From: Botryllus schlosseri
Taxonomy: Eukaryota
NCBI GenBank assembly: GCA_051294905.1
Contig: CM119371.1
Span: 32,180,001-32,244,000 of the forward strand
DNA: 64,000 nt
Reading direction: 5' to 3'
The translations under genes were made by a program, and so were the position numbers. Of this stretch, positions 12,071 to 36,694 are shown in pieces (positions within the stretch are counted from its first letter, which is position 1; each line of letters opens with the position of its first letter). The notes beneath the pieces were generated by a model, which made no database searches, was not told the DNA's origin, and saw only the letters and a program-made list of their open reading frames with translations.

Positions 12071-14092
12071 ATGAATTTCTGGAGAAAACGCGAAAGAGGA
12101 CTGCATCTAGTCACCGCGTTGGACATCATCAGAGCAAATCCCAACACATGCGACTTCGAAGTGAGATTCTGCGGTCAAGTCTTCCGAGCGCATCGCGCCG
12201 TGTTAATGGCTTCGTCTGACTATTTCAAATCTATCCTCGCCCGCGACACGACCGAATTCAAACAAGGATTTGTCGAAGTATCAGCCGTCATTAATGCTGC
12301 TGCATTCAAAAAATGCTTGGAATATCTATACACCGGTGAAATAACGATCGATTTCAATACGGTAGAAGGCATTCTACGCGCCAGCCGCATTTTAATAATG
12401 AAAGAAATTGATGAGATATGTTTCGATTTCTTGAAAGAGAACCTGTCTTTGAATAAAACTCTGTACGTTTTGAGCTTGGCCACGGTTTACGACTCGCCCA
12501 GTACGGTAGAAGATGCTCTCAAGTTTGTTATCAGACATTACGCGGAATTCATAGAGACGGACGAATTCAAGGCCTCTGATATTGAAGTCGCCATTGAATT
12601 ATTGAGGTCAGTTTTGTCGCATCCTACTGAGGTCTTGTGGAGAGGCGTAGTCAATTGGATTGAGTATGATATCGCCAAACGTAATGGGGATTTGATACGC
12701 TTTTTGGAAGAAATCAAACAGTTTAATCTCGAGTCGACTTTAGTGCATATTTTCCCCCATCCTCTCGTCAGCAAGAACAGAGAAGCCACGAAATTCATAG
12801 TAACTAACGTATTCTTTGAACACCGCGCTAACATCTGGCGGTATCTCGACCCCATCAATTGTTTTTTGGCTTACAACTGGACGCAAGACTACAACTCCGA
12901 CCAGAGACACGCCGATTTTCTAACTGTCGTCTTGAAATATATGAAGTCGTACCTGAACAGAATCTTTGAGAACGATCAGCTTGTTATTCTTAAAAAGGAA
13001 GACTTCGCCACCATTTTGGCGTCTAAAGAAGCCAGTTTCTTTTGCGAAACCGTACGATGGAAAGCTATAATCAACTGGATGAAAGGCGACAAGTCGCGTG
13101 AAGCGGATTTCGACGACCTGTTTCCGTTGTTAGACCTTAGGAATATGTCAGTTAACTTCTTACAAGATTACATACGCCCGCATCCTCTGATACAACGATC
13201 GCAGCAGCATAAAGAGCTGATAACAGACGAGATGTTTTTACATACACAGAGAAAAACGCGCGTAAATTCGTGCCTGCTATTCGATAATACAACAGGCCAT
13301 TTGCATTGTCATTACCCGGTCGGTTGGCAATCTTCTCCACCTAGTAAAAAGCTAGTTACCGGTACTTTGCTAGGCGGAAACGGGGAAGGGTACATCTTAA
13401 AATTTCCAAAGCTCTACAAGATAAGACCCAACGGGGCTATTGAAACCAAGCAGTCAAGCCCGATTGTAGCAGTTGTTAAAATAGCCCTCATCCATTCCGG
13501 TGTGATATACGTGTTTCACGAACTCGGAAAACACTCAACCTTTGACTTGTCTCATTGCAAATGGCGTATGGCGTCTCACAGCTTCGATATTCCGGAAGGT
13601 ACGGGGGTGTGTTCTACTGAAGAAGGAATGCTGTTTTTAGGCGGGGGAGATGACGGTAAATTCACCAAGCTTTACGATCCGGCGAAGCCTTATGAAGTGT
13701 CGCGACAAATACCGCCCATGCAGTACGGTAGGTCGCACGCTACTTGCGCTGCGGTAGGTACCTCTGTGTTTTTAGTGCGAGGTCAAGATCACTTTGAATT
13801 CAGCTCTGGAAGTCGGACAGATGTTCAAGTGTATTCCTTCAAAGCGAATTCGTGGTCGATTTTGAACGAGTCTTATCTCACGTTCGCGGACAACGTGGTG
13901 TGTTGCTGTGGTTTGGATTCTGCGTTTTTGATGGTCGGATACAAAACCATAGCCGTGGGTAGCATGAGCAGAAAACGAAGGGAAGGTGTACTGCAACTGC
14001 AAGAGATATCTGCGTGGGAGGTGTCCACGATTAAGGACGTGCCGATGCTACGCCACGCGCAAATCGCCGGCTGGATTCTGCACGAAATGTAA
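12071..14092 (+). CDS. Intronless BTB-BACK-BACK-Kelch-like protein, paralog 1 (673 aa)
   Basis: BTB motif CDFEVRF..FRAHRAVLMASSDYF..LEYLYTGEI; two BACK-like segments; Kelch-like LFLGG..YDP..PM..GRS..CAAV..VF..WS. Uninterrupted ORF. Confidence 0.92.
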   Translation: MNFWRKRERGLHLVTALDIIRANPNTCDFEVRFCGQVFRAHRAVLMASSDYFKSILARDTTEFKQGFVEVSAVINAAAFKKCLEYLYTGEITIDFNTVEGILRASRILIMKEIDEICFDFLKENLSLNKTLYVLSLATVYDSPSTVEDALKFVIRHYAEFIETDEFKASDIEVAIELLRSVLSHPTEVLWRGVVNWIEYDIAKRNGDLIRFLEEIKQFNLESTLVHIFPHPLVSKNREATKFIVTNVFFEHRANIWRYLDPINCFLAYNWTQDYNSDQRHADFLTVVLKYMKSYLNRIFENDQLVILKKEDFATILASKEASFFCETVRWKAIINWMKGDKSREADFDDLFPLLDLRNMSVNFLQDYIRPHPLIQRSQQHKELITDEMFLHTQRKTRVNSCLLFDNTTGHLHCHYPVGWQSSPPSKKLVTGTLLGGNGEGYILKFPKLYKIRPNGAIETKQSSPIVAVVKIALIHSGVIYVFHELGKHSTFDLSHCKWRMASHSFDIPEGTGVCSTEEGMLFLGGGDDGKFTKLYDPAKPYEVSRQIPPMQYGRSHATCAAVGTSVFLVRGQDHFEFSSGSRTDVQVYSFKANSWSILNESYLTFADNVVCCCGLDSAFLMVGYKTIAVGSMSRKRREGVLQLQEISAWEVSTIKDVPMLRHAQIAGWILHEM

Positions 14093-14114
14093 AACTGATG
14101 AATAAGATGTGTAA

Positions 14115-14490
14115 TAGTCACTGTATCCTGTATGCTAAACCCTCATTTATTTAGAATTGGATGCTCAAATAACCTGTTCTGTCATCACTGCACTGTCTCT
14201 GAAACTGTCGACCATTTTCTTCTCAACTGTTCAGGATATGAGTTTCAACATTCCTTGCGCATAGAATACTGCCACAATCGTAATGGATTCACGTCGTATA
14301 AACTGTTAGTTTTGTCTGAGCTAGGATTAACCCCAATCGCCGAGTTTGTGATTTCATGTCGTAGATTCCTATAATTATGATCAGTAATGTTCAAGCTAGA
14401 TAAACTCACGAAGTATTTTGTAACAGTAGGTGATTATAAACTGTGGCGCACCATTCCTTTATAAGTTAAGCGCCACTATACTTTTACAAT
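14115..14490 (+). mobile_element. 3' fragment of an I/Nimb/Jockey-group LINE
   Basis: LNPHLFRIG..C..C..ETVDHFLLNC zinc-knuckle-like ORF2 end, then a GTGGCGC...GCGCCAC stem-loop at 14443-14477. Confidence 0.7.
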
Positions 14491-14679
14491 GCTTATAATG
14501 ATAGTAAGCCGAAGATTCGCCTATTTCCACATTTTATTTCTATTGGCCATCTGGAATCGATACGAAGAATGAACACGAGAGTGCGTGTTGCTGTTTATTG
14601 TATTTGAGAATGAGCATCGCGCGTCTTTGAGAATTGTAGGCCTAGGCCTATTTGAGAGTGCGCTAACCGGATTAGAAGC

Positions 14680-15840
14680 TGTTGTTGTTAGTGGGATTCA
14701 TGGTGTCTGTCGACAACTATGGTCATTCACACCAGGCCGTTATTCCTTATTTTCGATCCGTATCTGCCGACTTCTAGGCTTTTCGTAAGACACCGCTTAT
14801 GCGGATGAGATTGCCAGGAGGGGCCTAGATAAACCTCCAGCACATAGGTAGGAATTCTACGGAGTCGACCTCGGTCGGACTCGAACCCACAACCCATTGG
14901 TGTTGTAGCTGTGGAATATACCACTACGCCAGGGGCGGGCAACTTCTCCAGTCGCCGGGCCGGATATACTTGGCGGGCCGGATTGCTCAATCGATACATT
15001 ATTCTCCCATTTATCCACATAGACAAGGTGTAAATCGTATTTAATAAATGTATTTTAACGATAGCAATGTCACTTCAAAGCCATTTCTCGCCGATGATGA
15101 CGAAGACAATTTGGATTTGAGAACAGCATTGTCATACAGGCGCCGCCATGTCTGCTTCTCTCTGATCAATCAACACACGGTGCAATCCCTAATTAAGATT
15201 TCAAGGCGTTCGATAATCCCGGTACCCCAAATTTACCAAGATATCAATTCATTAGGGCTGAGTAGGTGACGAGATAGGGTCGTTGCTCAACTGTGTGGCC
15301 TATTTTATCTCGATATTGAATTCACGCGGACCGAGACTTCTACGACATTTGAAAAGTGCATCGCGACCAATTTTGAGTTGGCAACCCCTGGCATAAGCGG
15401 TGTCTTACAAAAGCCTAGAAGTGTGCCGTGCCACATGTCGGCGACTACGGAATCAAAAATATGAAATATCGGCCTGGTGTAAATTACCATTGTAGTCGAC
15501 AAACAACATGACTACCACAAACGATATTAGGGTTGAGTACATCGTAAATTCCTATAATGCATGTCTTCCCGCTTCGACGAACTTGAGCGTAAGCTCCACT
15601 ATCTCACGCTGCGCAGTGCACACTGCACAATGCACTGCACATGCATGTATGTATATAATAACAGTCACTAAGATTTGACGTAGTAAGCAAGTATAGAGGG
15701 GAATCTCGGCAGACTAGCCGCGGGCCACATTATCATATAAGACGGAAAACTGTCCGCGGGCCGGACAAAATCCCTTCGCGGGCCGGATCCGGCCCGCGGG
15801 CCGTATGTTGCCCACCCCTGCACTACGCTATCTCGCCACC
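14680..15840 (-). mobile_element. tRNA-derived SINE S1 split in its A-box region by a hAT MITE
   Basis: The SINE body 14680-14929 (B box GGTTCGAGTCC) resumes at 15821-15840 after the MITE. Confidence 0.75.
14930..15820. mobile_element. hAT (Buster/Charlie-type) MITE
   Basis: TIR CAGGGGCGGGCAAC / GTTGCCCACCCCTG with a perfect TSD cactacgc. Contains a partial S1 SINE at 15390-15520. Confidence 0.92.
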
Positions 15841-16002
15841 GCATTAGAAGTTTCATGCTACCGCTGGATTTTAGCAGTTAAACTGACCAATATATATATA
15901 TTTTGATATTCTATTGTTGCACGATCAGTAATGCTACTCCAACAATAGGGTAAATAATTACCGAATATATGAAATCTGTAGAACATAGTGTCGTATATAA
16001 AC

Positions 16003-16335
16003 TAGCGTTACCATGCGGTCATTTAAGTGGATTTGTCCTCTCTTTTGAAGCAATGTCCGCCCGTCGCCCAAATGTCCTCATTTTTGACAATTTGTCGTGA
16101 AATTTTGGCCTAATATAGACGACTGGTTGCGTGGGAGTCAAATCTGAAAAAAAGAGATATTTTAGTCAACGCCGGTAAATGCGGGTGAGTCAAATCTGAA
16201 AAATGAATTTTTTTAGTCAAAACAACAAGATTTCCAGTAAATATTTCAAAATCAGCTGTTTTCAATTTCGGTAGACAAACTTTTATGATTTGAAAAAGTG
16301 ACCTCCTTTCTCGATTACAAAATATGGTAACCCTA
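16003..16335. mobile_element. MITE family K (TAGGGTTACC termini)
   Basis: TAGCGTTACC / GGTAACCCTA ends with GTCCTC internal repeats, as in 18910-19220. Confidence 0.75.
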
Positions 16336-16781
16336 TGTAATGTTTCTGCGCGGCACGCGAAATGATCGCGTGGCGATTATAGGCGCAGAAGCCTGTCTAA
16401 TCTTGACGGTCGGTAACGCAGGTATAAATCGAACACAGCTATTTACTAAAATGATTGAATATAATGACGCAAATTTGGCAATGGCAGAGTAAACGTAGGA
16501 TTTATAACAATGCTTGACCGCAAATCGTCCACCTTCTTTACAGCAAAGTAATCAATAAAAACTTGTCTAGCAAGTGAATATATTTAAACAAGTCATTTGG
16601 GGTACAGAACTTCAAAATAACGCGACTAAATTAATAATATGAAGTTATTGTTTCGCGTTAATTGAATATATAGAGAAAGAAAACGCGACCGATAATGAAT
16701 GCACCGAGCAGTAATTAAATAGAAATACACAAATTTCACACGAAACAAGGTAACGCCGTATACGCAACGCACTCTGTAACA
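16336..16781 (-). mobile_element. Possible solo LTR
   Basis: TGTAA...TGTAACA (TG..CA) bounded segment lying between the end of MITE K and the second copy of its apparent TSD, atataaac. No clear LTR TSD. Confidence 0.35.
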
Positions 16782-17796
16782 TATAAACCCTCGTTGTCAG
16801 TAATGGAGTACTTTTTACGAGTACATAAAGTGGTTTCGGCCTACTTGCGCTGCATTGGTTACGTTTTAGACTACTTCCCTGTAGAAACGTGACTGACGGT
16901 CTGTCTAATATACGAGACGTGTAGTTCTCATGTATTCAGTCTTCAGTGACGACCAAGCACCGAAGCATGCACCTGCGATGTCGTCACACCCTAGTGGCGC
17001 CATAGAGCTACCACTACATTCCCCTTCTAATTCCCAGTATTTTAGGCAAAAAACTAATTACTTTTTGCACTTTCCACGTTGCAAAGTAGAAAATAGTTTT
17101 GAGAGATGTTTGCATGACTTTTGTGAGCGAAATTTCAGTATAAATAGACTTATAATAGCCCCTATATCGCAGTAACTGAACAATGAACATATTTTTCAAT
17201 ATCGCACATTTTTGTACCCTGCTATTTCAAAATAAGCCACCTCCGATATAATAACTGCTAATGGTATTTGATCTCTCGACCTAATCTACATCTTGAAACT
17301 ACTTGGTTGAGTTCCTTTCAGTCATTCATTTTAAACTCCCATTTGAAGTATAGCTTTGAAATCGACAAACTCTGTATGACTTATCGAAGTCTCGTATATG
17401 AGGACAGATAATTGAAGAATAAGCCCAGAGACTGCACGTCTTTAATCTAATTATTCTCTAATGTTCACGAGTCTGCGCGCACTCACCAACTCACTGCGTG
17501 GTCCCTTGGACAACAGAGCGTAACGACTAAAAAAAGTTCATCACTTCGGCCTTTTTGTGCGAAGCTTAGATTTTCTGTGCACAGAGACCGCGTGTCAGCG
17601 TGGCAGTAGTAATTTGAACTTGATTTCAACACGAAACCGAACAGTAAACACTATGACTCGGACTCGACCCGTTGATCCCTGACTTGGACTCGGACTTGAC
17701 TCGGTTGTGAATTGAAAATGACTCGACTTGACTCGAGTCAAAACTATACAAATTTCAAATTTACTTGTGATTCGAAACGTAGTGGCTTGGTTATAG

Positions 17797-18747
17797 CAGT
17801 GTTGGGATCAAGTCACTAACTTCGAGTCACGAGTCATTTCGAGTCATTGCACATTTTGACTCGAGTCAAGTCAAGTCAATCGATTTTCGAAGGTGACTCG
17901 AGTCAAGTCAAGTCACCCGATTTTTGGCGGTGACTCGAGTCAAGTCACGTCAAGTCACGAGTCAAGTCACAATTCAAGTCAAGTTGCCTTTTCAAATCAT
18001 GGGGCATGATTACGTCATTTTATTTTGCTATCGGTCTGAAATACAGATTGAGTGGTCATTGATTCTGAACCGATGAACGAATCTATAGTTAAATATACAC
18101 GTAAGAAGGTGTTGTAGCCTATCGCTCACGTATATTGTATATGCAGAACTGTTAAACTACGTAAGTAATTGCATAGCCTCAGTTTATAGTTCCCAGCAGA
18201 GTAGAGAATAGAGAAACGAATTGATAAGATGCAATACATTACCCGCTTATAAATTGATATGATACAATTCGAGCCCACGCCAAGGGTTGAGAACTATATA
18301 AACTATATTCGAATTCAATTTCAATAAAACAAGAGGTTTGGTTAAGGTAAGAACAGAAATAGACATTTTGACGTTAAATTATTTTGCTATGGTTTACGAC
18401 AACGTAAGCTGTAAGCTTCGATCACTTCGTTTGCGGTCAATTTATTTGTGAGAGAACAATGGAGGCTCAGTAAAACGCACGATCATTGATGATTGCTTCC
18501 CACGGGTTACACCAGCGTTTCGCGAACATTCCGACCATATGCAGGATACAGTGATTTTTATCGACACCGATTACTGCATGACTTGAAATTGACTCGTGAA
18601 TTTTTCTCCGAGTCACGAGTCAATCCACATTTCTGATACGCCGAGTCAAGTCAAGTCAAGTCATTTTAGCAAGGTGACTCGAGTTAAGTCAAGTCATACG
18701 AAAAAAGTGACTCGAGTCAAGTCATGACTCGAGTCATCCCAACACTG
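17797..18747. mobile_element. hAT-type MITE with GACTCGAGTC/CAAGT subterminal arrays
   Basis: TIR CAGTGTTGGGAT / ATCCCAACACTG with a perfect TSD ggttatag. It abuts a truncated related element (17620-17795). Confidence 0.93.
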
Positions 18748-18752
18748 GGTTA

Positions 18753-20530: not shown

Positions 20531-20926
20531 ACGCTGATAGTTGTAATAAATAAGTTGTTAAATATAAGTCCTTCTAATCGCAATTTTCTGAATTTTGCAA
20601 TGCTTTGGGTTAAACTACATCGGTGATCGCTCTGAGACCAACACTGCGCTATTGATCACCCAACGATATTGAATTGAAAGATTGTTTACTTCTGTGTTGT
20701 GTGACGTGTCCAGTGTGTGTGTCGAGTGGCGCACATACAATTGACTGATTGAGCTATTAGAAAATATATTAGAATTAGGCCCAGGCGCAATGATTAGAGT
20801 ATTCGAATCTGAACTGAGTATCATTTCTAATGATTCGAGTCGAGTAGTTAGACATGACATTTTTCGAGCATTAAAGTTCTGTACCTTCAGTCCAACTGTC
20901 CAAGAAGCTCTTCTGTGAAATAACGA

Positions 20927-21636: not shown

Positions 21637-22150
21637 AATTACGAGCTCCTTGCCACTAAGAGATAATTTTTGATTGAAAGTGATTGTTTCGACACTATTT
21701 TCCGCTGTGGACGGCTGTAAACCTCAATTGGTCGTATCGTGGCTTCTAAAATATGCAGTACAAAGCCACTGCTACGCATACTGGTGGAAATGATATATCT
21801 GTGAAGTTGTGATCAACATTGTCACAATGAAATCCGCATGTGGTCAAAAAAAACAAATAATCTTCAATATCCTGTATAACTGGCGTTATATTATATAATT
21901 TATTTCAACTTTGAACAGTATTTATACTGTCGTGACGTAATGAGTACTAGGCTAATCGATTCAGTATCGAATCGCTCAGGTACATGATATTGTCCAGTCC
22001 TAATTGCAATAAAAATGGGTACGGTACTTCTATGTCTAGCTGAGCAGATACAACTGCACTACGGTATATAAGTTGCACTGCAATAAAAATGATCATCTCT
22101 TCAGAAGCCATTCCAAGCGAATCAAATGGTGTAGGCCTACTGTGTGTATA

Positions 22151-24172
22151 ATGGATTTCTCAAGGCAGAGAGAAAGAGGATTACGTCTACTCCTTGCGAT
22201 TGACATTCTGAGACGACACAGTCCATCTACTTGTGATTTGGAAGTGCGATTTGGCGGGCAGACATTTCATGCTCATCGCGCTGTATTGGCAGCATCTTCG
22301 GATTACTTCGCGACAAAACTGAAATCCGGTAGCGACGAAAAGACGGATCTATATATCGAAATTGTTGGATTGGATGAGGAAAGCGTTCGTAAATGCTTGG
22401 AATATCTTTACACTGGAAAAATAGTCATTGACTTTGAAAGTCTGAACGTCATTCTTGAAGCCTGCAGTAAAATGAAGTTGGACGACATAAAAGAAATTTG
22501 TTTTGATTTCATGAAGGCTAACTTATCAGTCGACAAATGCTTAGATATCCTGGAATACGCTACTAAATATCATTCACAAAGCACCATTGATGCAACGTTC
22601 GGATTCATTTCTGATAATTTCCAAGGTTTCATTGGAACGGCAGGATACTGCAACGTTGAGAGAGATATGGCACTCGAATTTATTCGGAGATCGAAAAAAG
22701 TTGCAGCTCGTGTGATGTGGCGTGGGATTTCTAATTGGATCAATCACGATCCATCCAGTAGGAAGAACGATGTGATGCTATTTCTCAACGAAATTCCTCA
22801 ATTCGATCCCAAATCAACTTTGCATGACATTTTGAGTGATCCCCTTGTTTTCGGCAATGAGGACATTACACGATTTCTAGTTGAGACTGTATTTTTAGAT
22901 AAAGATGAAGATTTGGAACAACATCTTGATGACAGTAATTGGTTTCTTGCATACGAGAGTTTCGTAGTATGCTCGGCCGACCATCGTTGTGATCCATTCA
23001 GCAGAGCTATCCAAAGATATGTTTTCAAGAATTTCATGGTATTGTCGAAGCAACAGCAACTTCTTCGTATTGGTGAAGAGGATTTGTTTGTCATTCTCAA
23101 GGCAAACGAAACAACTAATTACTGTGAAACAATCAGATGGCAAGCTGTTGTTGATTGGATCGCTGTTGATAAATCCAGAGAGATTCATTTCGAGAAATTG
23201 GCGTCATTGATCAATTTCAAAAATCTTTCACCAAAGTTTATCAAAGAGCAAATTACAACTCATTCCTTAATGAAGGGTGCACCTGCTTTAAAAGAAATCA
23301 TCTTCAATGACGTTTTCTTTCACATGCAAAAAGGTACGAAATTAAACTCGTGTCTGTTATTTGACTCGTATTCCGGTGAGCTGCACTCTCATTTGAATGG
23401 CTCGTGGACACAGATATCGTCGAATAAGGATATCGCTAATGGTACATTGCTTGGAGGTAACGGAGAAGCATATGTGTTGAAGTTTCCGAAACTTTACAAG
23501 ATAAGGAAAGATGGTGCTGCAGAAATCAAAACACCGTGTAATAGGCTTGATGATGTGAAGGCAAAGGTAATTCATTCTGGAAGAATTTTTGTTTTCCACA
23601 GTCATAAAATGTATTCAAAATTTGATTTGTCGATTTGCAAGTGGGAAACTGGATCCATTGGATTTGGAATCCCAGTAGGATCAAGCTGTTGCTCTACCAG
23701 TAAAGGAATCTTGTTTCTTGGTGGAGTTGGGGGTGACCAACGATTTACCCAACTGTTTGATCCCGATTATCGACTCAGAGGCTATGGCCATATCAAATCG
23801 ATGCCAAACGGACGGTCATACACCAGCTGTGCAGCTGTTGCCAACACTGTATTTGTGGTTGGTCGAACTGGTAATCTACCTTATGGCGGACAAGTGGATA
23901 TTCAGATTTATTCTTTTGAATCAGATACCTGGTCTATGTTGGACACATCTATTTACCGTCTTGCGAAGGATTTGATATGCTGTTGTCCGGGGGAGTCTGT
24001 CTGTTTCGTGGCGGGGCACGATGGTGAAAATTGGTCCGAACGGGAACTACGAATACATAGTATGTCGGCCTGGGGCGTAAGCGCCCTGCAGCAAATTCCA
24101 AAAGTGAGTAATGCGCAGATCACAGGCTGGGCATGGGACAAGCCGGCTATTTCAGAAGCTCTGACTCAATAA
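22151..24172 (+). CDS. Intronless BTB-BACK-BACK-Kelch-like protein, paralog 2 (673 aa)
   Basis: ATG at 22151 (MDFSRQRERG) aligns with the other paralogs; the ORF-track TTG start at 22073 is unlikely. Same domain motifs as paralog 1. Confidence 0.92.
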   Translation: MDFSRQRERGLRLLLAIDILRRHSPSTCDLEVRFGGQTFHAHRAVLAASSDYFATKLKSGSDEKTDLYIEIVGLDEESVRKCLEYLYTGKIVIDFESLNVILEACSKMKLDDIKEICFDFMKANLSVDKCLDILEYATKYHSQSTIDATFGFISDNFQGFIGTAGYCNVERDMALEFIRRSKKVAARVMWRGISNWINHDPSSRKNDVMLFLNEIPQFDPKSTLHDILSDPLVFGNEDITRFLVETVFLDKDEDLEQHLDDSNWFLAYESFVVCSADHRCDPFSRAIQRYVFKNFMVLSKQQQLLRIGEEDLFVILKANETTNYCETIRWQAVVDWIAVDKSREIHFEKLASLINFKNLSPKFIKEQITTHSLMKGAPALKEIIFNDVFFHMQKGTKLNSCLLFDSYSGELHSHLNGSWTQISSNKDIANGTLLGGNGEAYVLKFPKLYKIRKDGAAEIKTPCNRLDDVKAKVIHSGRIFVFHSHKMYSKFDLSICKWETGSIGFGIPVGSSCCSTSKGILFLGGVGGDQRFTQLFDPDYRLRGYGHIKSMPNGRSYTSCAAVANTVFVVGRTGNLPYGGQVDIQIYSFESDTWSMLDTSIYRLAKDLICCCPGESVCFVAGHDGENWSERELRIHSMSAWGVSALQQIPKVSNAQITGWAWDKPAISEALTQ

Positions 24173-24539
24173 GTTCAAAACAAGACTACTACGATACTGA
24201 TACCATAACCTACCGAAGATATGGAAATTATTCACTGTAGTTATGCGTAATTACATAGTTCTTTTAATCTTTTGGGTAGCAATTCTTTTTAGTAGCAATA
24301 ATAAGTCCATTGTTGGGCATTGTTGACATCAGCGAATGCTTGCTTGATTTGGAAGTGCATCGAAAGGTATTATGCAAAGTACTTCGTAGTGGTGTCTTAT
24401 TGATTGCTTGTTTTGAAGGTGCAATAGTGTAGATGTAGATTTGTTGCAAGCAATCATGAAAGTCTGTTGTGTGTGTGGTCTCGGCTTTTTCCAGCGGGTT
24501 TTCCTGCGTGCTGACTCTTGTCACTTCATTTTCACCGTT

Positions 24540-24725
24540 TGTCCTATTTACGTGATCTTCAGTTGCTTTTTATTCAATGTGCAATGTGCATGTTTCTTAT
24601 TTAATTATTATTATATTAGCATATGTATGCCGAGGTGGGTGTTTTATCGTGAGTGTTATCCAAGTCGTTTCACTTTTTCCTATCAATTTATTTTATCGCA
24701 ATCTTGTGGTGATTTGAAATGATGA
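24540..24725 (+). mobile_element. CR1/L2-like LINE 3' UTR remnant (duplicated at ~37060-37225)
   Basis: Motifs TGTGCATG..GCCGAGGTGGGTGT..TATCGCAATCTTGTGGTG resemble the 3' UTR of the LINE at 52-290 read on its sense strand. Confidence 0.5.
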
Positions 24726-25211
24726 CGCACAGTGCCTTCCTTGGTTTGTTATGATTCATTAAATTATAATCGCAAGCTTGTGCTGCTCTTCGTGACTTCA
24801 TGCGGTAAGCAACAGGGTTGTTAACAGGAATATATTTGATCCAAATTCAACGATTTTGCACTTTTGGTGGTCATAGGTCAGCACGTCAAACCAGGGTTGT
24901 AACAAAGTCACAATTCAATTAGACTTTTATTGTTTTGACTCGAGTCATTTTCAAGTCACGACCGACCCAAGTCCGAGTACAAGTCAGGGAGAAGCTGATC
25001 GAGTGTTAACTGTTAAGACCGGAGTCTCGGTCATAGAGTTCACTGTTCAGCAGGCCTATTGAGTTCAAGTCACTCCTGTAAAACTCTGAGTAGATTTGAA
25101 GGCCTCGGATTCATAATATACTCAATACCCATTTTTCTCACCCTAGACATGTATTTCGAAACATAAAACACGGTTTCTGGGCCTATTTTTCAATTATTGG
25201 TCCTGATATAC

Positions 25212-25362
25212 TAGGGTTACCATATTTTGGAAATCTGAAAAGAGGACACCCTTTCAAAATTTTCAGACTGGCAATACAAAAAGAGGACATTTGGGCGTCC
25301 TCCGAGGACACTTCCAAAAAAGATAAATTCTCTTAAAAGAGGACGTATATATGGTAACCCTA
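25212..25362. mobile_element. Short MITE family K (duplicated at ~46917-47082)
   Basis: TAGGGTTACC / GGTAACCCTA; TSD tgatatac / tcatatac. Confidence 0.85.
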
Positions 25363-28196: not shown

Positions 28197-29362
28197 CTGG
28201 CGGGCCGTGTCTGGCCTACCAGAATTGGGTTTGACAGCCCTGATATACTGTTAGGTCGGTGCAACTATCTTCTTTTTTTTTAAATCTGGACCGAAACAAC
28301 ATTTTATTCTGCCGCCAGTCCGCCCAAAAAAGGCACTGATGTTGGGCCCACCATAGGGTAAATAATATTGATTCTTCCATATATTAGGCTACTATGAAAT
28401 GCACCAACAGGTTGCACATCCGGTGATTTCCAACTTTTATGGTCGCGACTTCATTTCCAACTTGAAAATGTTTAGTGGTCCAGCTAAAAAATTGATAAGC
28501 TGAAGCTGATTACTTAAAAATATCAGCTTGCCCAAACTTACTCACGGCCAAGGAAGCTGATTGCGTCCAACATCATCGCGATCCCCAGATGAAGACAAAC
28601 GACCCCACGATTTGGAACCATTGACTGTGACTGAAGCATCCAATCGGCCTTAACCAACTCTAGGAATATACCGTTAGCTTATCATTGCGATTACAATCAA
28701 ACTTATTTCAGTAAATGATGGCTATTTATATTTATTTCGATTGCATTTTTGCGAGGATGATGCCTTGTGCCCCGTTGCATTACCGCGCGCGCGGCACGAA
28801 GAAGAATTTTGAATAGCACAAGTCTGCTAGAAAATGATATTGTTTATGTTAATTTACGAAAAAAAATTGAGCCTACTCCAAGCCTTCAAAATTCCGGACA
28901 TTTAGGCATATTTTAGAAATTCCTCCCGGACGCAGATTTTTCAGTGAAATTCCGGACATGTCGGGGAAATTCCGGACATATGGCAACCCTAATATATATG
29001 TCTTAAACTCTGAACAAGAACTTTGGTGGATCCCTCGCGGAAACTCTATACTACGTCTCCCAGCGGCTAATTCCAAAGACTATACAACGCAATGGCTCCG
29101 GTCTTGGAGGAAATTTGACAATTCCTTTTACAAAGTATATTTTCAGCTTCCTGAAATGAATATCATCATTGGTTCAATAGTTTAACACCGCTACAGCAGA
29201 CCAATAGATCATAGCATGAAGTGAAATAGCGTAAACTGAACTACGGTATGAATAATGCCTATATCCCAGGGTTTTAAGGACTCGAGTCATGACTGAAGTC
29301 GCAATTTTTTGGTGACTTGACTCAAGTCATTTTTTCAAATTCGTAAATTGACTTGGCTCGTG

Positions 29363-30171
29363 GGTTGCCGGAGAACCCGTCCCTACCAACTCGGCCCTCG
29401 AAGAACCCGGCCCTCGGTGAATTCCTCGGGAAATTTAGAAATTAAGTGTATTCACAAGTATTAATATGAATTAATAAAGTAATAATGTTATTATCAACTG
29501 ATTTGTCGGTCTTGTAAGGAGGTCAGGGCATGCGTAGGTCACGCAGTCACGGCGTGATCAGATCACGTGATCACGGATTGCGCAAGCGCCAAGCGCGGGA
29601 GAGAACGCGACGTTCACATATCGATATTAGGGTTGCCGGGGGTGGGATATTAGGGTTGGTGGAGGTGGGATATTAGGGTTGCCGGGGGTGGGATATTAGG
29701 GTTGCCGGAGGTGGGATATTAGGGTTGCCGGGGATGGGATATTAGGGTTGCCGGGGGTGGGATATTAGGGTTGGTGGAGGTGGGATATTAGGGTTGGGGG
29801 AGGGGGATATTAGGGTTGGGGTAGGATATTAGGGTTGCCGGGGGTGGGATATTAGGGTTGGTGGAGGTGGGATATTAGGGTTGGGGTAGGATATTAGGGT
29901 TAGGGTTAGGATATTAGGGTTGCCGGGGGTGGGATATTAGGATTGCCGGTGAATACAAAATTTCCCGAGGGCCGGGTACACATTTATTGCATTTTAATTC
30001 AAAATTGTTCGAGGGCCGCATTCACCGAGGTCCAGAGTAGTCGAAAAACACCGTGAATACCACAACAAGTAGACCACGCGTGCTTGATATGCAAAATTTC
30101 CCGAGGGCCGGGTTCTCCGAGGGCCGAGTTGGTAGGGACGGGTTCTCCAAGGGACGGGTTCTCTGGTAATC
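29363..30171. mobile_element. TIR element with 8-bp TSD carrying a G-rich minisatellite
   Basis: TIR GGTTGCCGGAGAACCCGTCCCT / AGGGACGGGTTCTCTGGTAATC with a perfect TSD ggctcgtg. Confidence 0.85.
29623..29950 (+). repeat. Minisatellite, 15 units of ~19-23 bp, consensus GATATTAGGGTTGCCGGGGGTGG, including TTAGGGTTAGGGTTAGG
   Basis: Units counted directly from repeated GATATTAGG. Confidence 0.95.
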
Positions 30172-30898
30172 GGCTCGTGTCAATTTTTGTATTGACTCGA
30201 CTTGTACTCTAAGTCATTGTGCATGACTCGGACCGAGTCGTATGACTCGAGACTAGGATGGCCAAGCCAGACATTTCATATAACTTCGAAGAATAGTAAA
30301 GTTACCACATTATTTGTATTTCGTCGATCAGTCCTGATACTTGGTCAATAAGGCCATAAACTGTTCTGTTAACACTGAAATGAAAATTCTATATTATGAA
30401 TGCGAGCCATTCTATATCACTCAAGCAGAGTTGAAAAAAGTGGGTTGAACAGGATTGAGCTTAAAACTAATCAGTGAACATAATGACTTGGACTCGAGTC
30501 AAAACACTATGACTATGACTCGACCCTCTACTAGATGACTGGGACTTGACTCGGTGGTGAATTGAAAATGACTCGAGTCAAAACTATAAGAATGAGATTG
30601 ACTTGTGACTTGGTTACAACCCTGCTATATTCATAGTAAAACTAATTCAGGTTATTGTATCAGTATAATCACTAGCAGAGGAAGATACTTATTTTTCGAA
30701 AGAAGCCACATCTGGTAACTGCTACAATCATGCGATCCTTCCATGAAATCTACTTGAGCACTTGGCCCAACATTCTTTTTCTACTTCCAGATGAAATAGT
30801 TTGACATGTCTTGGTAATTGAAAAGTTATTGAAAAGAAATTTAGGGAGTTACTTCTACTTAGTAGCAACGATGACTACGTCTGATGACAGGCTTGGTG

Positions 30899-32938
30899 TT
30901 ACGTAGGTTGAACTGAGCCAGATACTGTTTCATTAGCCGGCTTGGTCCATGCCCAACCCGTAATCTGAGGGAAACACACTTTAGGAATTTGCTGCAGTGC
31001 GCATACGTCCCAGGCCGTCAAACTATGTATTTGAAGTTCTTGTTTCGATGTATCATCACTATCACGCCCTGCCACAAAACAGCAGGAATCCCCAGTGCAA
31101 CAGCTAATGAAACAATTTGCAATACGGTAAACAGATGTGTCCAGCATAGACCAGGTATTTGATTCAAAAGAATATATCTGAATATCCACTTCTCCGCCAT
31201 TAGATTTATTACAAGTTCTACCAAGAACAAACACAGTGCTGCCAACAGCGGCACAGCTGATGTATGATCGTCCTTTTGGCATCGGTTCGATTCGGTCAGA
31301 GCCTGTTGACAGATTATCGGGATCAAACAATTTGGTAAATCGCTGGTCATTGCCAACTCCACCAAGAAACAATATTCCTTTACAGGTAGAGCAACAGCTT
31401 GACCCTTCTGGGATTACAAATTGATGGGATTTTGCGGAATAATACCACTCGCAAATCGACAAATTGAATTTGAAATACTGTCGACTGTAGAAAACAAAAA
31501 TGCTCCCCGAATGGAGTACCTTTGCCTTGACAGAACCAGTCAACAGACGAGACGTGGTTTTCATTTCTATGGCCCCATCTTTCCTTATCTTGTAAAGCAT
31601 TGGAAATTTCAACACATACGCTTCTCCGTTACCTCCTAACACTGTACCATTAGCGATCTCCGCACTTGACGATAAATGCGTCCATGCTCCATTCACATGA
31701 GAGTGCAGATCGCCGGAATACGAGTCAAATAACAGGCACGAATTCAGTTTTGTACTTTGCTGTGTGTGAAAGAAAATGTCATTGAAAATGGTTTCTTTCA
31801 AAGCCGGTGCACTCTTCATTAATGGGTGAGTTGCAATTTGCTCTTGAATAAACTTCGGTGGGAGATTTTTGAAATTGATCACCGAAGCCAATTTTTGGAA
31901 ATGAATCTCTCTGGATTTATGGGCAGCGATCCAACCTACAACAGCTTGCCATCTAATTGTCTCGCAGTATCTTTTTGTTTGGTTTTCGTTTAGAATGTCA
32001 TATAAGTCCTGCTCATCAATATGAAGAAATTGTTTTTGCTTGGTCACACGCATGAAATCCTTCGACAGATATCTTCGGATAACACTGCAGAATGAATCAC
32101 AACGAGGGTCGGCACCGCATACTGCAAAACTGTCATATGCAACAAACCAGTTACGGTCATCAATGTGTTTCTCCAAATCTACATTCTTATCTAAAAATAC
32201 GGTCTTAACAAGAAATCTTGTAATATCATCATTTCTGATAACAAGGGGATCACTCAAAATGTCTATCAGAGTTGATTTCGGATCAAACTGAGGAATTTCG
32301 TTGAGAAATAGCATCACATCATCTTGCCTAGTGGATAGATCATGATTGATCCAATTAGAGATCCCATGCCATATCAGATGAGTTGGAACTGCTTTTGATC
32401 TCCGTAAACATTCGAGTGCAATATTTCTATCTGAGTTGCAGTATTCTTCCGTTCCAATCAAACTTCGTAAATTATCAGAAATGAATCCGAGCGCTGCATC
32501 AAGTGTGCTTTGCGAATGATATCTAGTAGCGTAGTCCAGGATAACTAAGCATTTGTCGACTGATAAGTTGGCCTCCATGAAATCAAAACACATTTGTTTA
32601 ACATCGTCTAACTGCATCATACTGCAGGCTTGGAGAGTGCCGCGTAGACTTTTAAAGTCAATGAATATTTTCCCAGTGTATACATATTCCAAGCATTTGC
32701 GAACGCTATTCTCATCCTCCAATCCAAAAAGGTAAATACATCGATCGACTTCTTTATCTCGATCATACCTCAGTTTGTCTTTCAAGTAAACCGAAGATGC
32801 TGCTAACACAGCGCGATGAGCAAGAAATGCGGGCCCGCCAAAGTGCACTTCCACATCACAAGTTAATGGATTGTGTCTCAGCACGTCAAGAGCAGTGAGT
32901 AGACGTAGTCCCCTTTCTTTCTGCCTACAGAAATCCAT
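30899..32938 (-). CDS. Intronless BTB-BACK-BACK-Kelch-like protein, paralog 3 (679 aa)
   Basis: ATG at 32938 (MDFCRQKERG) aligns with the paralogs; intact ORF with the same motifs. Confidence 0.92.
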   Translation of the reverse strand: MDFCRQKERGLRLLTALDVLRHNPLTCDVEVHFGGPAFLAHRAVLAASSVYLKDKLRYDRDKEVDRCIYLFGLEDENSVRKCLEYVYTGKIFIDFKSLRGTLQACSMMQLDDVKQMCFDFMEANLSVDKCLVILDYATRYHSQSTLDAALGFISDNLRSLIGTEEYCNSDRNIALECLRRSKAVPTHLIWHGISNWINHDLSTRQDDVMLFLNEIPQFDPKSTLIDILSDPLVIRNDDITRFLVKTVFLDKNVDLEKHIDDRNWFVAYDSFAVCGADPRCDSFCSVIRRYLSKDFMRVTKQKQFLHIDEQDLYDILNENQTKRYCETIRWQAVVGWIAAHKSREIHFQKLASVINFKNLPPKFIQEQIATHPLMKSAPALKETIFNDIFFHTQQSTKLNSCLLFDSYSGDLHSHVNGAWTHLSSSAEIANGTVLGGNGEAYVLKFPMLYKIRKDGAIEMKTTSRLLTGSVKAKVLHSGSIFVFYSRQYFKFNLSICEWYYSAKSHQFVIPEGSSCCSTCKGILFLGGVGNDQRFTKLFDPDNLSTGSDRIEPMPKGRSYISCAAVGSTVFVLGRTCNKSNGGEVDIQIYSFESNTWSMLDTSVYRIANCFISCCTGDSCCFVAGRDSDDTSKQELQIHSLTAWDVCALQQIPKVCFPQITGWAWTKPANETVSGSVQPT

Positions 32939-34184
32939 TATATGACAGTATACTATATGATATAGCCTGAAATTTCCAGATACCTCAATTGAGTATAACG
33001 TCATTACACGGCAGTGCGGTGGTCTGGTCTACACTCATACTGTCAGTCTCAGAGCGGTCCCTGATGTTAACTGGAAGTTAATTTTACAAAATTCAGAATT
33101 CAAGTGATTAGAAGGAATGATCTTTAAGGTCAAAACGAGTTCATATAGATTAGAGAACAATACGCTTTACTAACAAGCATCAGCTGCTATTGGGCTGATA
33201 AAGGCCCCGTAAATAACGGAGGAAGCTTCTTCATTCAACGGTTTACTTTGCTTTGAAACGAACCCATAGAAGCATGAAGGCGGGAATGGCTCACGGTTAA
33301 TAAGAGATCAGGGATCGCATGAGGATATTTTGTAGAAGAAAAACAAAATCGAAAGCTAAAATAAGAGAACTAAACGAAAATTCAACGAAAACAACGGAGT
33401 TCCATGCTTATGCAGTAGGCTACTAATTTTTAGCTCGTAATATTCAAATACAAGTGGTTCGTGTGACACAAGTGACAGGTTATATTGCTGAAGGGCAAGT
33501 TTCAGAAGTCTGGGATTGTTCTCACCATAGCAATATTGCTCTCTGAAAGCAGCAGCACCGTCAGTACTGGGTCATCACTTCGGCTCGACTTCCGTATTTA
33601 TTGTTCCGAGGTTTTACCCAATTTTTACGAAGCTCCGACGTTCGCTGCGTCGGAGTCGAGCTTTTGATTGCATTTTAATACTTTTTATACGCAAAAAATA
33701 GGATATTAAGGCGTCCTCCGAAGACATGCACTTTCAATTTATTGAAAAAAGAGGACGTGTGGTAGGTGGTAGACCTATCTAATCTCTCAGCAAGACGTCC
33801 CTGCGGCCTTGAAGACTTCGGTGATATCGGGTCTCCCAGTCTGCCATGTAATATATATTTAGGCAAGTAAAAAAATTGTGTTGTTATTGGACGTGTGTAT
33901 GTCTGTGAACATTGTCCACACTGTATTTCATGGTTTGACGAATCAAAGAATTCTCTCTCTTGCTGTTATCATCCGTGTTTATACAGCTCAGTGGTTATTC
34001 CCTTCATGCTTCTATGGTTTTACGGTAAACATGTTTAGTTGTTTACATTGGATGATGGTTTCGTTTCTCAGCAACCCATTGAATGAAAAAGTTTCGCTTT
34101 ATTCTTTTCATGGCCCAACAAGCCAACAATCATCACTAGCTTATATGTGTCACTAAAACGTTTTGTCATCTACTTCTTGATTGG

Positions 34185-34410: not shown

Positions 34411-34669
34411 TTGGACTTGTTTTGACCGTAAAAATATTTACTTCTAATCGCAATTGTGAACAATTTTTCTGAATTTTGCAATATTTTATGCTCAATTACA
34501 TCAGTGACCGCATATATCACCATGTTGATGTTGCTAACTGCACTAAGTGCAGTGCACTGTAATCAATTTCTAGCGCTAATGAATTGAAGTATATATACCT
34601 GGACATTTAACATTATTTACTTCTCTGATGATCACCTTCAGGCTATATCAAATATTGTACTGTTTCATA

Positions 34670-36694
34670 ATGGATTTTTGTAGGCAGAAAGAAAGGGGAT
34701 CACGTCTACTGACTGCCCTTGACCTGCTGAGACATAGTCAATTACTTTGTGATTTGGAAGTGCGATTTGGCACGCAGACATTTCATGCTCATCTCGCTGT
34801 ATTAGCAGCATCTTCGGATTACTTCGTGACAAAACTGAAATCTGGTAGCGATGAAAAGACGGATCTACCGTATTATCTCGAAATCGTTGGATTGGACGAA
34901 GAGAGCGTTCACAAATGTTTGGAATATCTATATACTGGGAAAATATTTATCGACTTTGAAAGTCTGAACGCCATTCTTGAAGCCTGCAGTACAATGCAGT
35001 TGGACGAAATGAAAGAAATTTGTTTTGATTTCATGGAGGCCAACTTATCAGTCGACAAATGCTTAGATATCCTGGAATACGCCGCCACATATAATTCACA
35101 AACTACCATCGATGCAACATTCAGTTTCATTTCTGATAATTTCCAGGGTTTCATTGGAACGGCAGGATACTGCAACGTTGAAAAAAATATGGCACTCAAA
35201 TTTATTCGGAAATCGAAAAAAGTTGCAACTCGTGTGATATGGCGTGGGATTTCTAATTGGATCAATCACGATCTAGCCAGTAGGAAGAATGATTTGATGC
35301 TATTTCTCAACGAAATTCCTCAGTTTGATCCGAAATCAACTTTGCACGACATTTTGAGTGATCCCCTTGTTTTCGGCAATGAGGACATAACACGATTTCT
35401 AGTTGAGACTGCATTTTTAGATAAAGATGTAGATTTGGAGCAACATGTGGATGACAGTAACTGGTTTCTTGCATACGAGAGTTTCGCAGTATGCTCTGCC
35501 GACCCTCGTTGTGATGCATTCAGTAGAGCTATCTTAAGATATATTTTCAAGAATTTCATGGTAGTGTCTAAGCAACAGCAATTTCTTAGTATCGGCGAAG
35601 ATGATTTTTTTGTCATTTTCAAGGCAAACGAAACAAAGAATTACTGTGAAACAATTAGATGGCAAGCTGTTGTTGATTGGATTGCTGTCAATAAATCCAG
35701 AGAGATTCATTTTGAAAAATTGGCATCATTGATCAATTTCAAAAATCTCTCACCAAAGTTTATCCAAGAGCAAATTTTAACTTGTCCTTCCATGAAGAGT
35801 GCGCCTGCTTTGAAAGAGACTATCTTCAATGACATTTTCTTCCACACGCAAAAAAGTACTAAACTCAATTCATGTCTGTTATTTGACTCGTATTCTGGTG
35901 ATCTGTACTCTCATGTGCATGGCTCATGGACACATTTGTCAACGAGTAAGGAGATCGCTCATGGCAAATTGCTCGGAGGTAACGGCGAAGCATATGTTTT
36001 GAAGTTTCCGAATCTTTACAAAATACGGAAGGATGGGGCCATAGAGATTAAAACACCGTTTAAATGGCATGGTGGTCTCAAGGCATATGTACTCCATTCC
36101 GGAAGAATTTTTGTTTTCCACAGTCATAAAATGTATTCAAAATTTGATTTGTCGATTTGCAAGTGGGAAACTGGATCCAATGGATTTGGAATCCCAGTAG
36201 GTTCAAGCTGTTGTTCTACCAGTAGAGGAATCTTGTTTCTTGGTGGAGTTGGGAATGACCAACAATTTACCAGATTGTATGACCCCGATTATCTCTCAAT
36301 AGGGTCTGGCTATATCAAACCAATGCCGAACGGACGGTCATACACCAGCTGTGCAGCTGTTGCCAACAATGTATTTGTGATTGGTCGAACTGGTAACCTA
36401 CCCTATGGCGGACAACTGGATATTCAAATATATGCCTTTGAATCAAATACCTGGTCTATGCTGGACACGTCTGTTTACCGTCTTGCAAAAGATTTGATAT
36501 GCTGCTGTCCGGGGGAGTCTGTCTGTTTCGTGGCGGGGCACGATGGTGAAAAATGGTCCGAAGCAGAACTACGAATACATAGTTTGTCGGCCTGGGGCGT
36601 AAGCGCCCTGCAGCAAATTCCAAAAGTGAGTAATGCGCAGATCACATGCTGGGCATGGGACAAGCCGGCTATTTCAGAAGCTCTGACTCAATAA
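34670..36694 (+). CDS. Intronless BTB-BACK-BACK-Kelch-like protein, paralog 4 (674 aa)
   Basis: ATG at 34670 (MDFCRQKERG); intact ORF; C-terminus nearly identical to paralog 2. Confidence 0.92.
   Translation: MDFCRQKERGSRLLTALDLLRHSQLLCDLEVRFGTQTFHAHLAVLAASSDYFVTKLKSGSDEKTDLPYYLEIVGLDEESVHKCLEYLYTGKIFIDFESLNAILEACSTMQLDEMKEICFDFMEANLSVDKCLDILEYAATYNSQTTIDATFSFISDNFQGFIGTAGYCNVEKNMALKFIRKSKKVATRVIWRGISNWINHDLASRKNDLMLFLNEIPQFDPKSTLHDILSDPLVFGNEDITRFLVETAFLDKDVDLEQHVDDSNWFLAYESFAVCSADPRCDAFSRAILRYIFKNFMVVSKQQQFLSIGEDDFFVIFKANETKNYCETIRWQAVVDWIAVNKSREIHFEKLASLINFKNLSPKFIQEQILTCPSMKSAPALKETIFNDIFFHTQKSTKLNSCLLFDSYSGDLYSHVHGSWTHLSTSKEIAHGKLLGGNGEAYVLKFPNLYKIRKDGAIEIKTPFKWHGGLKAYVLHSGRIFVFHSHKMYSKFDLSICKWETGSNGFGIPVGSSCCSTSRGILFLGGVGNDQQFTRLYDPDYLSIGSGYIKPMPNGRSYTSCAAVANNVFVIGRTGNLPYGGQLDIQIYAFESNTWSMLDTSVYRLAKDLICCCPGESVCFVAGHDGEKWSEAELRIHSLSAWGVSALQQIPKVSNAQITCWAWDKPAISEALTQ

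What the first reader, a model, noticed from the sequence alone, without database searches (positions are those of the whole stretch)
12071..36694. Cluster of four intact, intronless BTB-Kelch-like genes with an unusual doubled BACK region
Seen: four uninterrupted ~675-aa ORFs survive in heavily transposon-invaded DNA, and none of the many insertions hits a CDS. After the BTB domain each has two BACK-like segments (paralog 1: LSLNKTL..EVLWRGVVNWI..HPLV, then LDPINCF..ETVRWKAIINWM..HPLI), followed by a very degenerate Kelch-like region. Established: KLHL-type proteins have one BTB, one BACK and about six Kelch repeats and act as Cullin-3 substrate adaptors. Inference: a lineage-specific, diversifying family of Cul3 adaptors with an extended helical arm, possibly for intracellular defence, like expanded F-box or BTB families in other animals.
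Basis: partly seen in the sequence, partly recalled or inferred. Interest (0 to 1): 0.72.

Follow-up and report, generated by a model that had tools for sequence, protein, structure and literature searches.

The report
Double-BACK Kelch adaptor gene cluster
Four intact genes encode a variant of the Kelch-type protein-destruction adaptors in which the helical spacer is doubled, a design shared with a large, apparently unstudied sea-squirt family, and three of the four seem to have lost the usual docking site for the ubiquitin ligase.

Summary
Confirmed. Four uninterrupted ORFs (673-679 aa; the third on the minus strand) each carry BTB, two BACK domains and a degenerate but complete six-bladed Kelch propeller. 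The doubling is not local: 41 of the 150 best database relatives have tandem BACK units of about 134 aa, two to six copies, ending in Kelch, Deltex-C or other tails; all 19 named hits of 30 looked up are Styela clava. All 40 first units form one group in a tree, so one old internal duplication founded the family. The genes are under purifying selection (dN/dS 0.30-0.45; no domain above 1), with low-level RNA support for g1, g2 and probably g4. New point: the Cul3-docking loop is near-canonical only in g1; g2-g4 carry Lys at the KLHL3 M78 site and lack the hydrophobic phi residue. Best reading: a long-armed CRL3 adaptor family whose young copies here are Cul3-impaired decoys or scaffolds. Cul3 binding was not testable; a defence role has no direct support. 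No description found in ten literature searches. New variant of a known kind; interest 0.5.

The parts
12071..14092 (+). g1, 673 aa BTB-BACK-BACK-Kelch gene, old paralogue (about 40% identical to g2-g4), Cul3 loop near-canonical
   Evidence: RNA pieces
12119..12442 (+). g1 BTB domain (residues 17-124)
   Evidence: KLHL3 BTB-BACK is the best solved relative of the four-gene profile, E 2.5e-26
12230..12256 (+). g1 alpha3-beta4 Cul3-contact stretch (S54, I55, T60-T61-E62 = KLHL3 A77, M78, M83-S84-E85)
   Evidence: residue roles from PMC3616122 passages
12458..12859 (+). g1 BACK unit 1 (residues 130-263): 3-box, BACK body and closing helices
12860..13252 (+). g1 BACK unit 2 (residues 264-394), the duplicated spacer
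13259..14083 (+). g1 six-bladed Kelch-type propeller (residues 397-671)
   Evidence: strand pattern; Z 22.0, rmsd 3.1 over 254 residues to the KLHL17 Kelch domain
22151..24172 (+). g2, 673 aa; Cul3 loop degenerate (T55, K56, S61-D62-E63)
22138..25217 (+). 3.1 kb segment duplicated with 34658-37692 (89% identity): g2 plus 1 kb of 3' flank, only 13 nt of upstream sequence shared
30899..32938 (-). g3, 679 aa, head to head with g4; Cul3 loop most degenerate (D54, K55, R60-D61-K62); no RNA seen on the part laid
34670..36694 (+). g4, 674 aa; Cul3 loop degenerate (T54, K55, S60-D61-E62) and disordered in the model
34636..34641 (+). acceptor-like site 28 nt upstream of the g4 ATG (counterpart near 32967-32972 on the minus strand for g3); possible 5' UTR intron or trans-splice acceptor
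   Evidence: seen by eye; not shown in RNA

Best explanation
The four genes are functional members of an ascidian family of BTB-(BACK)n-receptor proteins. It arose when one KLHL-type ancestor duplicated a 134-139 residue unit (BACK plus its closing helix) internally. SHOWN: architecture, single old origin of the doubling, complete six-bladed propeller, purifying selection, low-level RNA, degenerate Cul3 contacts in g2-g4. INFERRED from KLHL3/KLHL11 structures: the BTB dimerises; BTB plus the first 3-box docks Cul3; the second BACK has no BTB in front of it, so it acts as a spacer that moves the propeller, giving a Cul3 ligase adaptor with a longer or re-angled arm. g1 probably still works this way. 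The young trio g2-g4 kept arm and propeller under selection but lost the Cul3 clamp, so they most likely bind targets or paralogues while recruiting Cul3 weakly or not at all: KLHL39-like inhibitors, decoys or scaffolds.
For: Two BACK stretches in 4 of 4 proteins. 41 of 150 best representatives have tandem BACK units, first spacing 126-139 aa. First units: 40 of 40 on one side of one branch (SH-aLRT 92; shuffled mean 33 changes, 0 of 500 shuffles as low). Propeller matches KLHL Kelch domains at Z 21-22, rmsd about 3, and BTB-BACK matches KLHL11 at rmsd 5.4-6.1, while whole-chain fits to full-length KBTBD2, KLHL22 and KBTBD4 give rmsd 26-35. dN/dS g2/g4 0.30 (0.23-0.39), g2/g3 0.45 (0.36-0.56), g3/g4 0.41 (0.32-0.51). 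Family keeps the Cul3 motif: M/L/I at the M78 site in 38 of 39 tandem-BACK and 100 of 107 single-BACK relatives; Glu in 32 of 39 and 99 of 107. Lys at the M78 site occurs in 0 of 39 and 1 of 107 but in all of g2-g4. KLHL3 A77E, M78V and E85A severely disrupt Cul3 binding (PMC3616122 passages). The loop is a helix in the g1 model and pLDDT under 50 in the g4 model. KLHL39 is a precedent for a KLHL that lacks these contacts and inhibits KLHL20 (PMC4818519 passages).
Against: No binding or activity was measured or modelled. The phi residue is not essential in every case: vaccinia A55 F54E loses only 7-20 fold (10.1101/461806 passages), so g2-g4 could bind Cul3 through other contacts or a co-evolved Cul3. 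g1 itself has Thr at phi (as do 10 of 39 and 11 of 107 relatives), so its adaptor role is not secure; a full phi(MLFIV)-x-E is present in only 21 of 39 tandem-BACK relatives. The altered loop is nearly unchanged between g2 and g4 (1 non-synonymous change in 18 codons), which may mean constraint rather than decay. The alpha3-beta4 loop is also disordered in unbound KLHL11, so low pLDDT there is weak evidence. Arm geometry rests on models with pTM 0.69-0.73 and no coordinates were available. The BTB+BACK1 tree is weakly resolved (7 label changes, main group support 83). RNA depth is very low and no RNA was seen on the part of g3 laid.
Confidence: 0.55

Rival explanations
1. All four are active Cul3 adaptors that recognise foreign or pathogen proteins and diversify in an arms race.
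For: Large, fast family with mixed C-terminal modules. Top-face propeller loops vary more than the rest of the Kelch domain among g2-g4 (40 of 83 against 56 of 179 sites, p 0.009) and reach dN/dS 0.65-0.77 in pairs with g3 against 0.33 in strands. Expanded ligase adaptors in nematodes are speculated to serve immunity (PMC12951971 abstract). A collectin-like gene lies 14-22 kb away, a weak hint.
Against: No domain or loop set of the propeller is clearly above 1; top against bottom loops is not significant (40 of 83 against 15 of 42, p 0.25); g2/g4 top loops 0.38. Cul3 contacts are degenerate in g2-g4. No challenge or tissue data.
Confidence: 0.2
2. All four are Cul3-independent structural or scaffolding dimers in a restricted cell type (for example germ line or cytoskeleton), with the doubled BACK as a spacer between two binding heads.
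For: Even g1 lacks a large hydrophobic phi residue. Very low bulk RNA with a 3' pile-up in a single-cell run fits a restricted cell type. Many BTB-BACK-Kelch proteins are implicated in actin dynamics (PMC1257465 passages). Single-exon, testis-restricted calicin is a recalled precedent, from no call.
Against: Most relatives keep M78 and Glu, and some end in a Deltex C-terminal domain (P0011, P0015, P0016), which points to the ubiquitin system. No cell-type data were obtained.
Confidence: 0.15
3. g2-g4 are redundant young duplicates on their way to decay; the Cul3 loop loss is early pseudogenisation.
For: DNA-level duplications in repeat-rich sequence; Cul3 loop evolves at about the neutral rate in pairs with g3 (1.2-1.3, wide intervals); no RNA on the part of g3 laid.
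Against: dS 0.27-0.46 with no stop or frameshift in 3 of 3 genes, and gene-wide dN/dS intervals below 0.6; no repeat inside any CDS.
Confidence: 0.07
4. The intronless cluster is derived from a large DNA virus (poxvirus-like BTB-Kelch genes).
For: Single-exon CDSs; viral BTB-Kelch proteins exist and appear among Atlas look-alikes (rank 19) and fold matches.
Against: Closest sequence relatives are chromosomal Styela clava genes; no relative among viral contigs (127 pattern matches, 0 confirmed); the top 16 viral fold matches are 8-13% identical with whole-chain rmsd 20-36; no other viral-looking gene among 146 ORFs scanned.
Confidence: 0.02

Closest known systems
BTB-BACK-Kelch proteins (KLHL/KBTBD; KLHL3, KLHL11, KEAP1, KBTBD2)
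   Same: Long-form BTB, 3-box/BACK directly behind it, six-bladed Kelch propeller at the C-terminus.
   Different: A second full BACK unit; whole-chain fits fail (rmsd 26-35); Kelch sequence motif almost erased; BC loops of blades I-III only 2-4 residues against an average of 12 in KLHL structures (PMC3597819 passages); Cul3 motif degenerate in g2-g4.
Styela clava tandem-BACK proteins in RefSeq (e.g. XP_039258012, XP_039274250, XP_077966279, XP_039253596, XP_077967859), labelled 'uncharacterized' or 'kelch-like'
   Same: Same two units at the same spacing, homologous unit by unit.
   Different: Only about 20-30% identical to g1; most keep the Cul3 motif; some carry canonical Kelch repeats, a Deltex C-terminal domain, or six BACK units without Kelch. 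No paper describing them was found.
KLHL39 / IVNS1ABP (NS1-BP)
   Same: BTB-Kelch protein with non-conserved Cul3-contact residues that does not bind Cul3 (PMC4818519 passages); proposed analogue for g2-g4.
   Different: No orthology was tested; its inhibition of KLHL20 is shown by experiment, nothing is shown for g2-g4.
LZTR1
   Same: A Cul3 adaptor with two BACK domains (architecture recalled; seen only as search listings).
   Different: Kelch is N-terminal and each BACK follows its own BTB; here two BACK units follow one BTB.
Ciona robusta Klhl7-like expansion (Klhl7a-g, PMC7517041 Table S1)
   Same: Tunicate-specific multiplication of divergent BTB-BACK-Kelch genes.
   Different: One BACK each by eye (Klhl7a has none); relationship to this family not tested.

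Membership tests
KLHL/KBTBD (BTB-BACK-Kelch) | N-terminal long-form BTB domain | tested here: met
   Pfam BTB E 4e-15 to 1e-20 in 4 of 4; alpha1 helix 3-20 in both models
KLHL/KBTBD (BTB-BACK-Kelch) | 3-box/BACK directly after the BTB | tested here: met
   BACK starts at residue 130-131 in 4 of 4; aligns with KLHL3 and KLHL11 BTB-BACK
KLHL/KBTBD (BTB-BACK-Kelch) | A single BACK domain between BTB and Kelch | tested here: not met
   Two BACK units in 4 of 4; so not filed as canonical KLHL, only as working like one
KLHL/KBTBD (BTB-BACK-Kelch) | C-terminal six-bladed Kelch propeller (fold) | tested here: met
   Z 22.0, rmsd 3.1, 254 residues to the KLHL17 Kelch domain for the g1 model; same strand pattern in the g4 model
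KLHL/KBTBD (BTB-BACK-Kelch) | Four to seven recognisable Kelch sequence repeats | tested here: inconclusive
   One Kelch_1 hit above cut-off in g1, none above cut-off in g2-g4
Cul3-binding BTB adaptors | phi-x-E motif and KLHL3 A77/M78-equivalent contacts, gene g1 | tested here: inconclusive
   S, I and T-T-E: Glu and hydrophobic M78 site kept, phi is Thr as in 21 of 146 relatives
Cul3-binding BTB adaptors | phi-x-E motif and KLHL3 A77/M78-equivalent contacts, genes g2-g4 | tested here: not met
   Lys at the M78 site in 3 of 3; phi is Ser, Arg, Ser; Glu replaced or shifted in g3
Cul3-binding BTB adaptors | Physical binding to Cul3 and substrate ubiquitylation | not testable with these tools
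KLHL/KBTBD (BTB-BACK-Kelch) | BTB-mediated dimer | not tested
   No complex prediction was run; dimerisation is inferred from solved relatives
LZTR1 type | Kelch N-terminal, two BTB-BACK modules (recalled definition) | tested here: not met
   One BTB, N-terminal; Kelch C-terminal
KLHL39-type inhibitors | Loss of Cul3-contact residues in the BTB | tested here: met
   At sequence level for g2-g4; KLHL39's own residues were not compared
KLHL39-type inhibitors | Blocks another KLHL-Cul3 ligase | not testable with these tools
   Needs co-IP and ubiquitylation assays
Poxviral BTB-Kelch proteins | Close relatives in viral genomes | tested here: inconclusive
   0 of 127 pattern matches confirmed in viral contigs; only distant fold matches; the scan is insensitive to distant relatives
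Rapidly evolving defence adaptors (nematode F-box/MATH-BTB type) | Positive selection on the substrate-binding domain | tested here: inconclusive
   Kelch dN/dS 0.34-0.46; top-face loops 0.38-0.77, upper bound 1.04; three sequences give little power for single sites

The most novel reading that the evidence does not exclude
In these ascidians the BACK domain has become a true tandem repeat: a modular helical ruler of two to six 134-residue units that sets how far a swappable receptor (Kelch, Deltex-C, other) sits from the Cul3 catalytic centre. The family also throws off Cul3-blind copies (g2-g4) that tune neighbours such as g1 by heterodimerising or shielding substrates, possibly in immunity or self/non-self recognition.
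Probability: 0.25. Interest if true: 0.72.

Novelty: new variant of a known kind. Interest (0 to 1): 0.5.

Why it matters
In BTB-Kelch ligases the single BACK domain fixes the distance between substrate and E2. A natural series with two to six BACK units makes it testable how arm length changes CRL3 substrate range, and offers ready-made spacers for engineered degraders. The family is large (at least 41 clusters at 50% identity among the 150 best hits) yet was not described in any paper found, and RefSeq labels hide it under names such as 'kelch-like 12'. An apparently Cul3-competent gene beside three Cul3-impaired paralogues would be a compact case of adaptor-to-decoy evolution.

Tried and rejected
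No whole genome is held, so the genome-wide copy count was not possible. Word-index homologue searches were nearly blind: 3 hits for g1, 3 for the family profile, 2 for the P0074 BACK pair; they are no evidence of absence. ESM Atlas gave only generic BTB-BACK-Kelch or BACK clusters. The run search listed no RNA holder on record; expression rests alone. Careful tree of BTB+BACK1 did not finish; the quick tree was used. Left out of the unit tree: P0039, P0044, P0065, P0105, P0116 (irregular or partial units; 5 of 45 tandem-BACK proteins), and all but 24 single-BACK proteins. dS to g1 is saturated. No complex prediction was run: no Cul3 was available, and a BTB dimer would pass by likeness to solved structures. 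Rejected: assembly or frame artefact (DNA runs of several studies hold up to 88% of g2's words; same architecture in RefSeq Styela genes); cluster-specific doubling; retroposition for g3/g4 and g2/g4 (flanks are duplicated too). No tRNA. Earlier scan notes: nothing by sequence, place or the full word set; 8 unrelated BTB notes from other genomes. Literature searches without a description of tandem BACK domains: (searches were for background); the Styela genome paper has no 'kelch' or 'BTB' in its text or its 1 held supplement. The library lacks most subscription papers; bioRxiv supplements were closed.


Full report
OBSERVATION. The window holds four long ORFs and no further copy or fragment: g1 12071-14092 (+), g2 22151-24172 (+), g3 30899-32938 (minus strand) and g4 34670-36694 (+). 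From the aligned ATGs they encode 673, 673, 679 and 674 residues. g2 and g4 are 84% identical, g3 is 69% identical to both, and g1 about 40% to all. Pfam finds BTB and two matched BACK stretches in 4 of 4. AlphaFold models of g1 and g4 (33 and 34 aligned sequences; pLDDT 85.7 and 86.3; pTM 0.69 and 0.73) show BTB, the same helix series twice about 134 residues apart, and a beta domain. That domain superposes on KLHL Kelch propellers over about 250 residues (best Z 22.0, rmsd 3.1), so it is a complete six-bladed propeller although only one repeat in one gene passes a Pfam Kelch cut-off. Its BC loops in blades I-III are 2-4 residues long. BTB-BACK alone fits KLHL11 at rmsd 5.4-6.1, but whole-chain fits to KBTBD2, KLHL22 and KBTBD4 give 26-35: same parts, different overall geometry in the model.

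SURROUNDINGS. At least 31% of the window is repeated within the window, in about 50 blocks, none inside a CDS. This is what purifying selection gives and is not itself surprising. Only one transposase remnant was identified among 146 ORFs. g3 and g4 lie head to head, 1.7 kb apart. g2 and g4 share a 3.1 kb duplicated segment. Their 3' flanks differ by only 57 of 997 bases while dS in the CDS is 0.27, which suggests recent conversion at the 3' end (inference). g3 and g4 have an acceptor-like AG 28 nt before the ATG, so 'intronless' is shown for the coding sequence only.

THE FAMILY. phmmer of g1 against 1.84 billion cluster representatives gave 6218 hits, the best 150 listed. A BACK profile built here finds tandem units in 41 of the 150, including 36 of the top 44; the first spacing is 126-139 residues; P0007 and P0021 have six units. 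C-termini include canonical or degenerate Kelch, Deltex C-terminal domains (3 of the 30 scanned) and tails without a Pfam hit. Of 30 hits looked up, 19 carry a name and all 19 are Styela clava; 17 of them are in the tandem class. The rest are unnamed assemblies. The window's proteins are only about 20-30% identical to the Styela ones, so the window is another species, probably a related ascidian (inference). In a published Ciona robusta Klhl set (PMC7517041; passages and Table S1 parts 1, 3-6 of 6, cells cut at 400 characters) I saw 28 Ciona entries: 24 show one BACK followed by the Kelch region, 1 has none, 3 could not be judged; this is by eye only.

ORIGIN. In a quick tree of 112 BACK units, the 40 first units fall on one side of one branch (SH-aLRT 92), the 8 middle units on another (98), and g1-g4's second units group with other last units (few columns, many open forks). 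The slow pair P0074/P0162 (48% identical to each other) still shows 33% identity between its two units. One old internal duplication of BACK plus closing helix, before the family radiated, is the simplest reading. The BTB+BACK1 tree agrees loosely (7 label changes against 37.3 shuffled; 40 of 43 tandem proteins in a group of support 83) and joins g1-g4 with the unnamed P0008.

SELECTION AND EXPRESSION. Nei-Gojobori dN/dS is 0.30 (g2/g4), 0.45 (g2/g3) and 0.41 (g3/g4); by domain it ranges from 0.25 to 0.58, all intervals below 1. Top-face propeller loops are faster in pairs with g3 (0.65-0.77 against 0.33 for strands) but not above 1, and not significantly more variable than bottom loops (p 0.25). 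RNA was laid on 11600-31599, which covers g1, g2 and the 3' third of g3, not g4. Bulk run X23 (6% read) gives depth 0.1-0.8, by my arithmetic about ten reads on g2 and one or two on g1. Contigs of X17 and X18 (RNA is a guess) cover parts of g1 and the 3' part of g2 at depth 3-6, including a gap-free 1051-base piece on g1, while a unique intergenic bin has zero depth in these three runs. Single-cell run X21 has almost nothing on the CDSs but 17-24 same-orientation reads at 24680-24712; two of their three listed differences are the g4 letters, so they probably come from g4 or from a converted g2 allele. g3 shows no depth in three runs and 0.23 in one. Expression is low but probably real for g1, g2 and g4.

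CUL3 SURFACE. [quoted passage not shown] Mapped through, relatives mostly keep these sites (M/L/I at M78 in 38 of 39 tandem and 100 of 107 single-BACK proteins; Glu in 32 of 39 and 99 of 107). g1 has S, I and T-T-E, near-canonical with a small phi. g2 and g4 have T, K and S-D-E; g3 has D, K and R-D-K. Lys at the M78 site occurs in 1 of 146 relatives. The loop is helical in the g1 model and below pLDDT 50 in the g4 model. Against over-reading: vaccinia A55 tolerates a phi mutation (10.1101/461806, passages), the loop is disordered in unbound KLHL11 too, and it is conserved between g2 and g4.

MECHANISM. Most likely (0.55): the family works like KLHL adaptors, with BTB and the first 3-box docking Cul3 and the extra BACK units acting as spacers; g1 retains this role and g2-g4 are Cul3-impaired decoys or scaffolds, as KLHL39 is for KLHL20 (PMC4818519, passages). 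Architecture, origin, constraint and motif loss are shown; dimerisation, Cul3 binding, arm length and the decoy role are inferred. Rivals: active defence adaptors (0.2), Cul3-independent structural proteins (0.15), decaying duplicates (0.07), viral origin (0.02).

NOVELTY. BTB-BACK-Kelch adaptors and lineage-specific BTB expansions are well known (PMC1257465, passages; its 'two BACK domains' refers to a dimer). LZTR1 has two BACKs, each behind its own BTB (recalled). Tandem BACK units behind one BTB were not described in any paper returned, nor in the Styela genome paper (PMC7540406, passages and 1 supplement); subscription papers are largely outside this library, and the architecture is visible in public Pfam annotation of the Styela proteins. 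Verdict: a real, apparently undescribed architectural variant of a known kind, with an open and testable function. Interest 0.5.

Noticed in passing
window 59210-50282 (-): Collectin-like gene: first exon with a signal-peptide-like start and Gly-X-Y repeats (Pfam Collagen, E 2.2e-7), a probable middle exon near 57815-57624 (by eye, no Pfam hit), and a C-type lectin exon at 50282-50587 (E 6.4e-11).
   Followed up: partly
window 29600-29955: 23-nt minisatellite with a TTAGGG core, about 12 copies, between g2 and g3.
   Followed up: no
window 43288-43548 (+): hAT transposase dimerisation-domain remnant (Pfam E 8.8e-9); ORF 2614-3081 (-) also looks like a transposase C-terminus by eye but has no significant Pfam hit.
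   Followed up: no
window 4335-5698, 51103-52465, 61967-63145: Three copies of a 1.2-1.4 kb non-coding element, 79-84% identical, and a related 1 kb element at 40534-41515 and 59872-60839.
   Followed up: no
window 24173-25217 and 36695-37692: The 3' flanks of g2 and g4 differ by 5.7% while synonymous sites differ by dS 0.27, and differences fall off in the last 70 codons: possible gene conversion or a constrained 3' UTR.
   Followed up: partly
proteins P0011, P0015, P0016: BTB-BACK-BACK fused to a Deltex C-terminal domain instead of Kelch; P0011 is a Styela clava RefSeq protein. P0035 looks similar by eye.
   Followed up: no
proteins P0007, P0021, P0039, P0065, P0105: Members with three to six BACK units: P0007 (Styela clava) and P0021 have six and no Kelch; P0039 and P0065 have four or five irregular units before a Kelch-like region.
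   Followed up: partly
window 13052-14102: A contig of run X17 differs from g1 at 26 of about 1050 bases (2.5%), which suggests high allelic diversity in this species.
   Followed up: no
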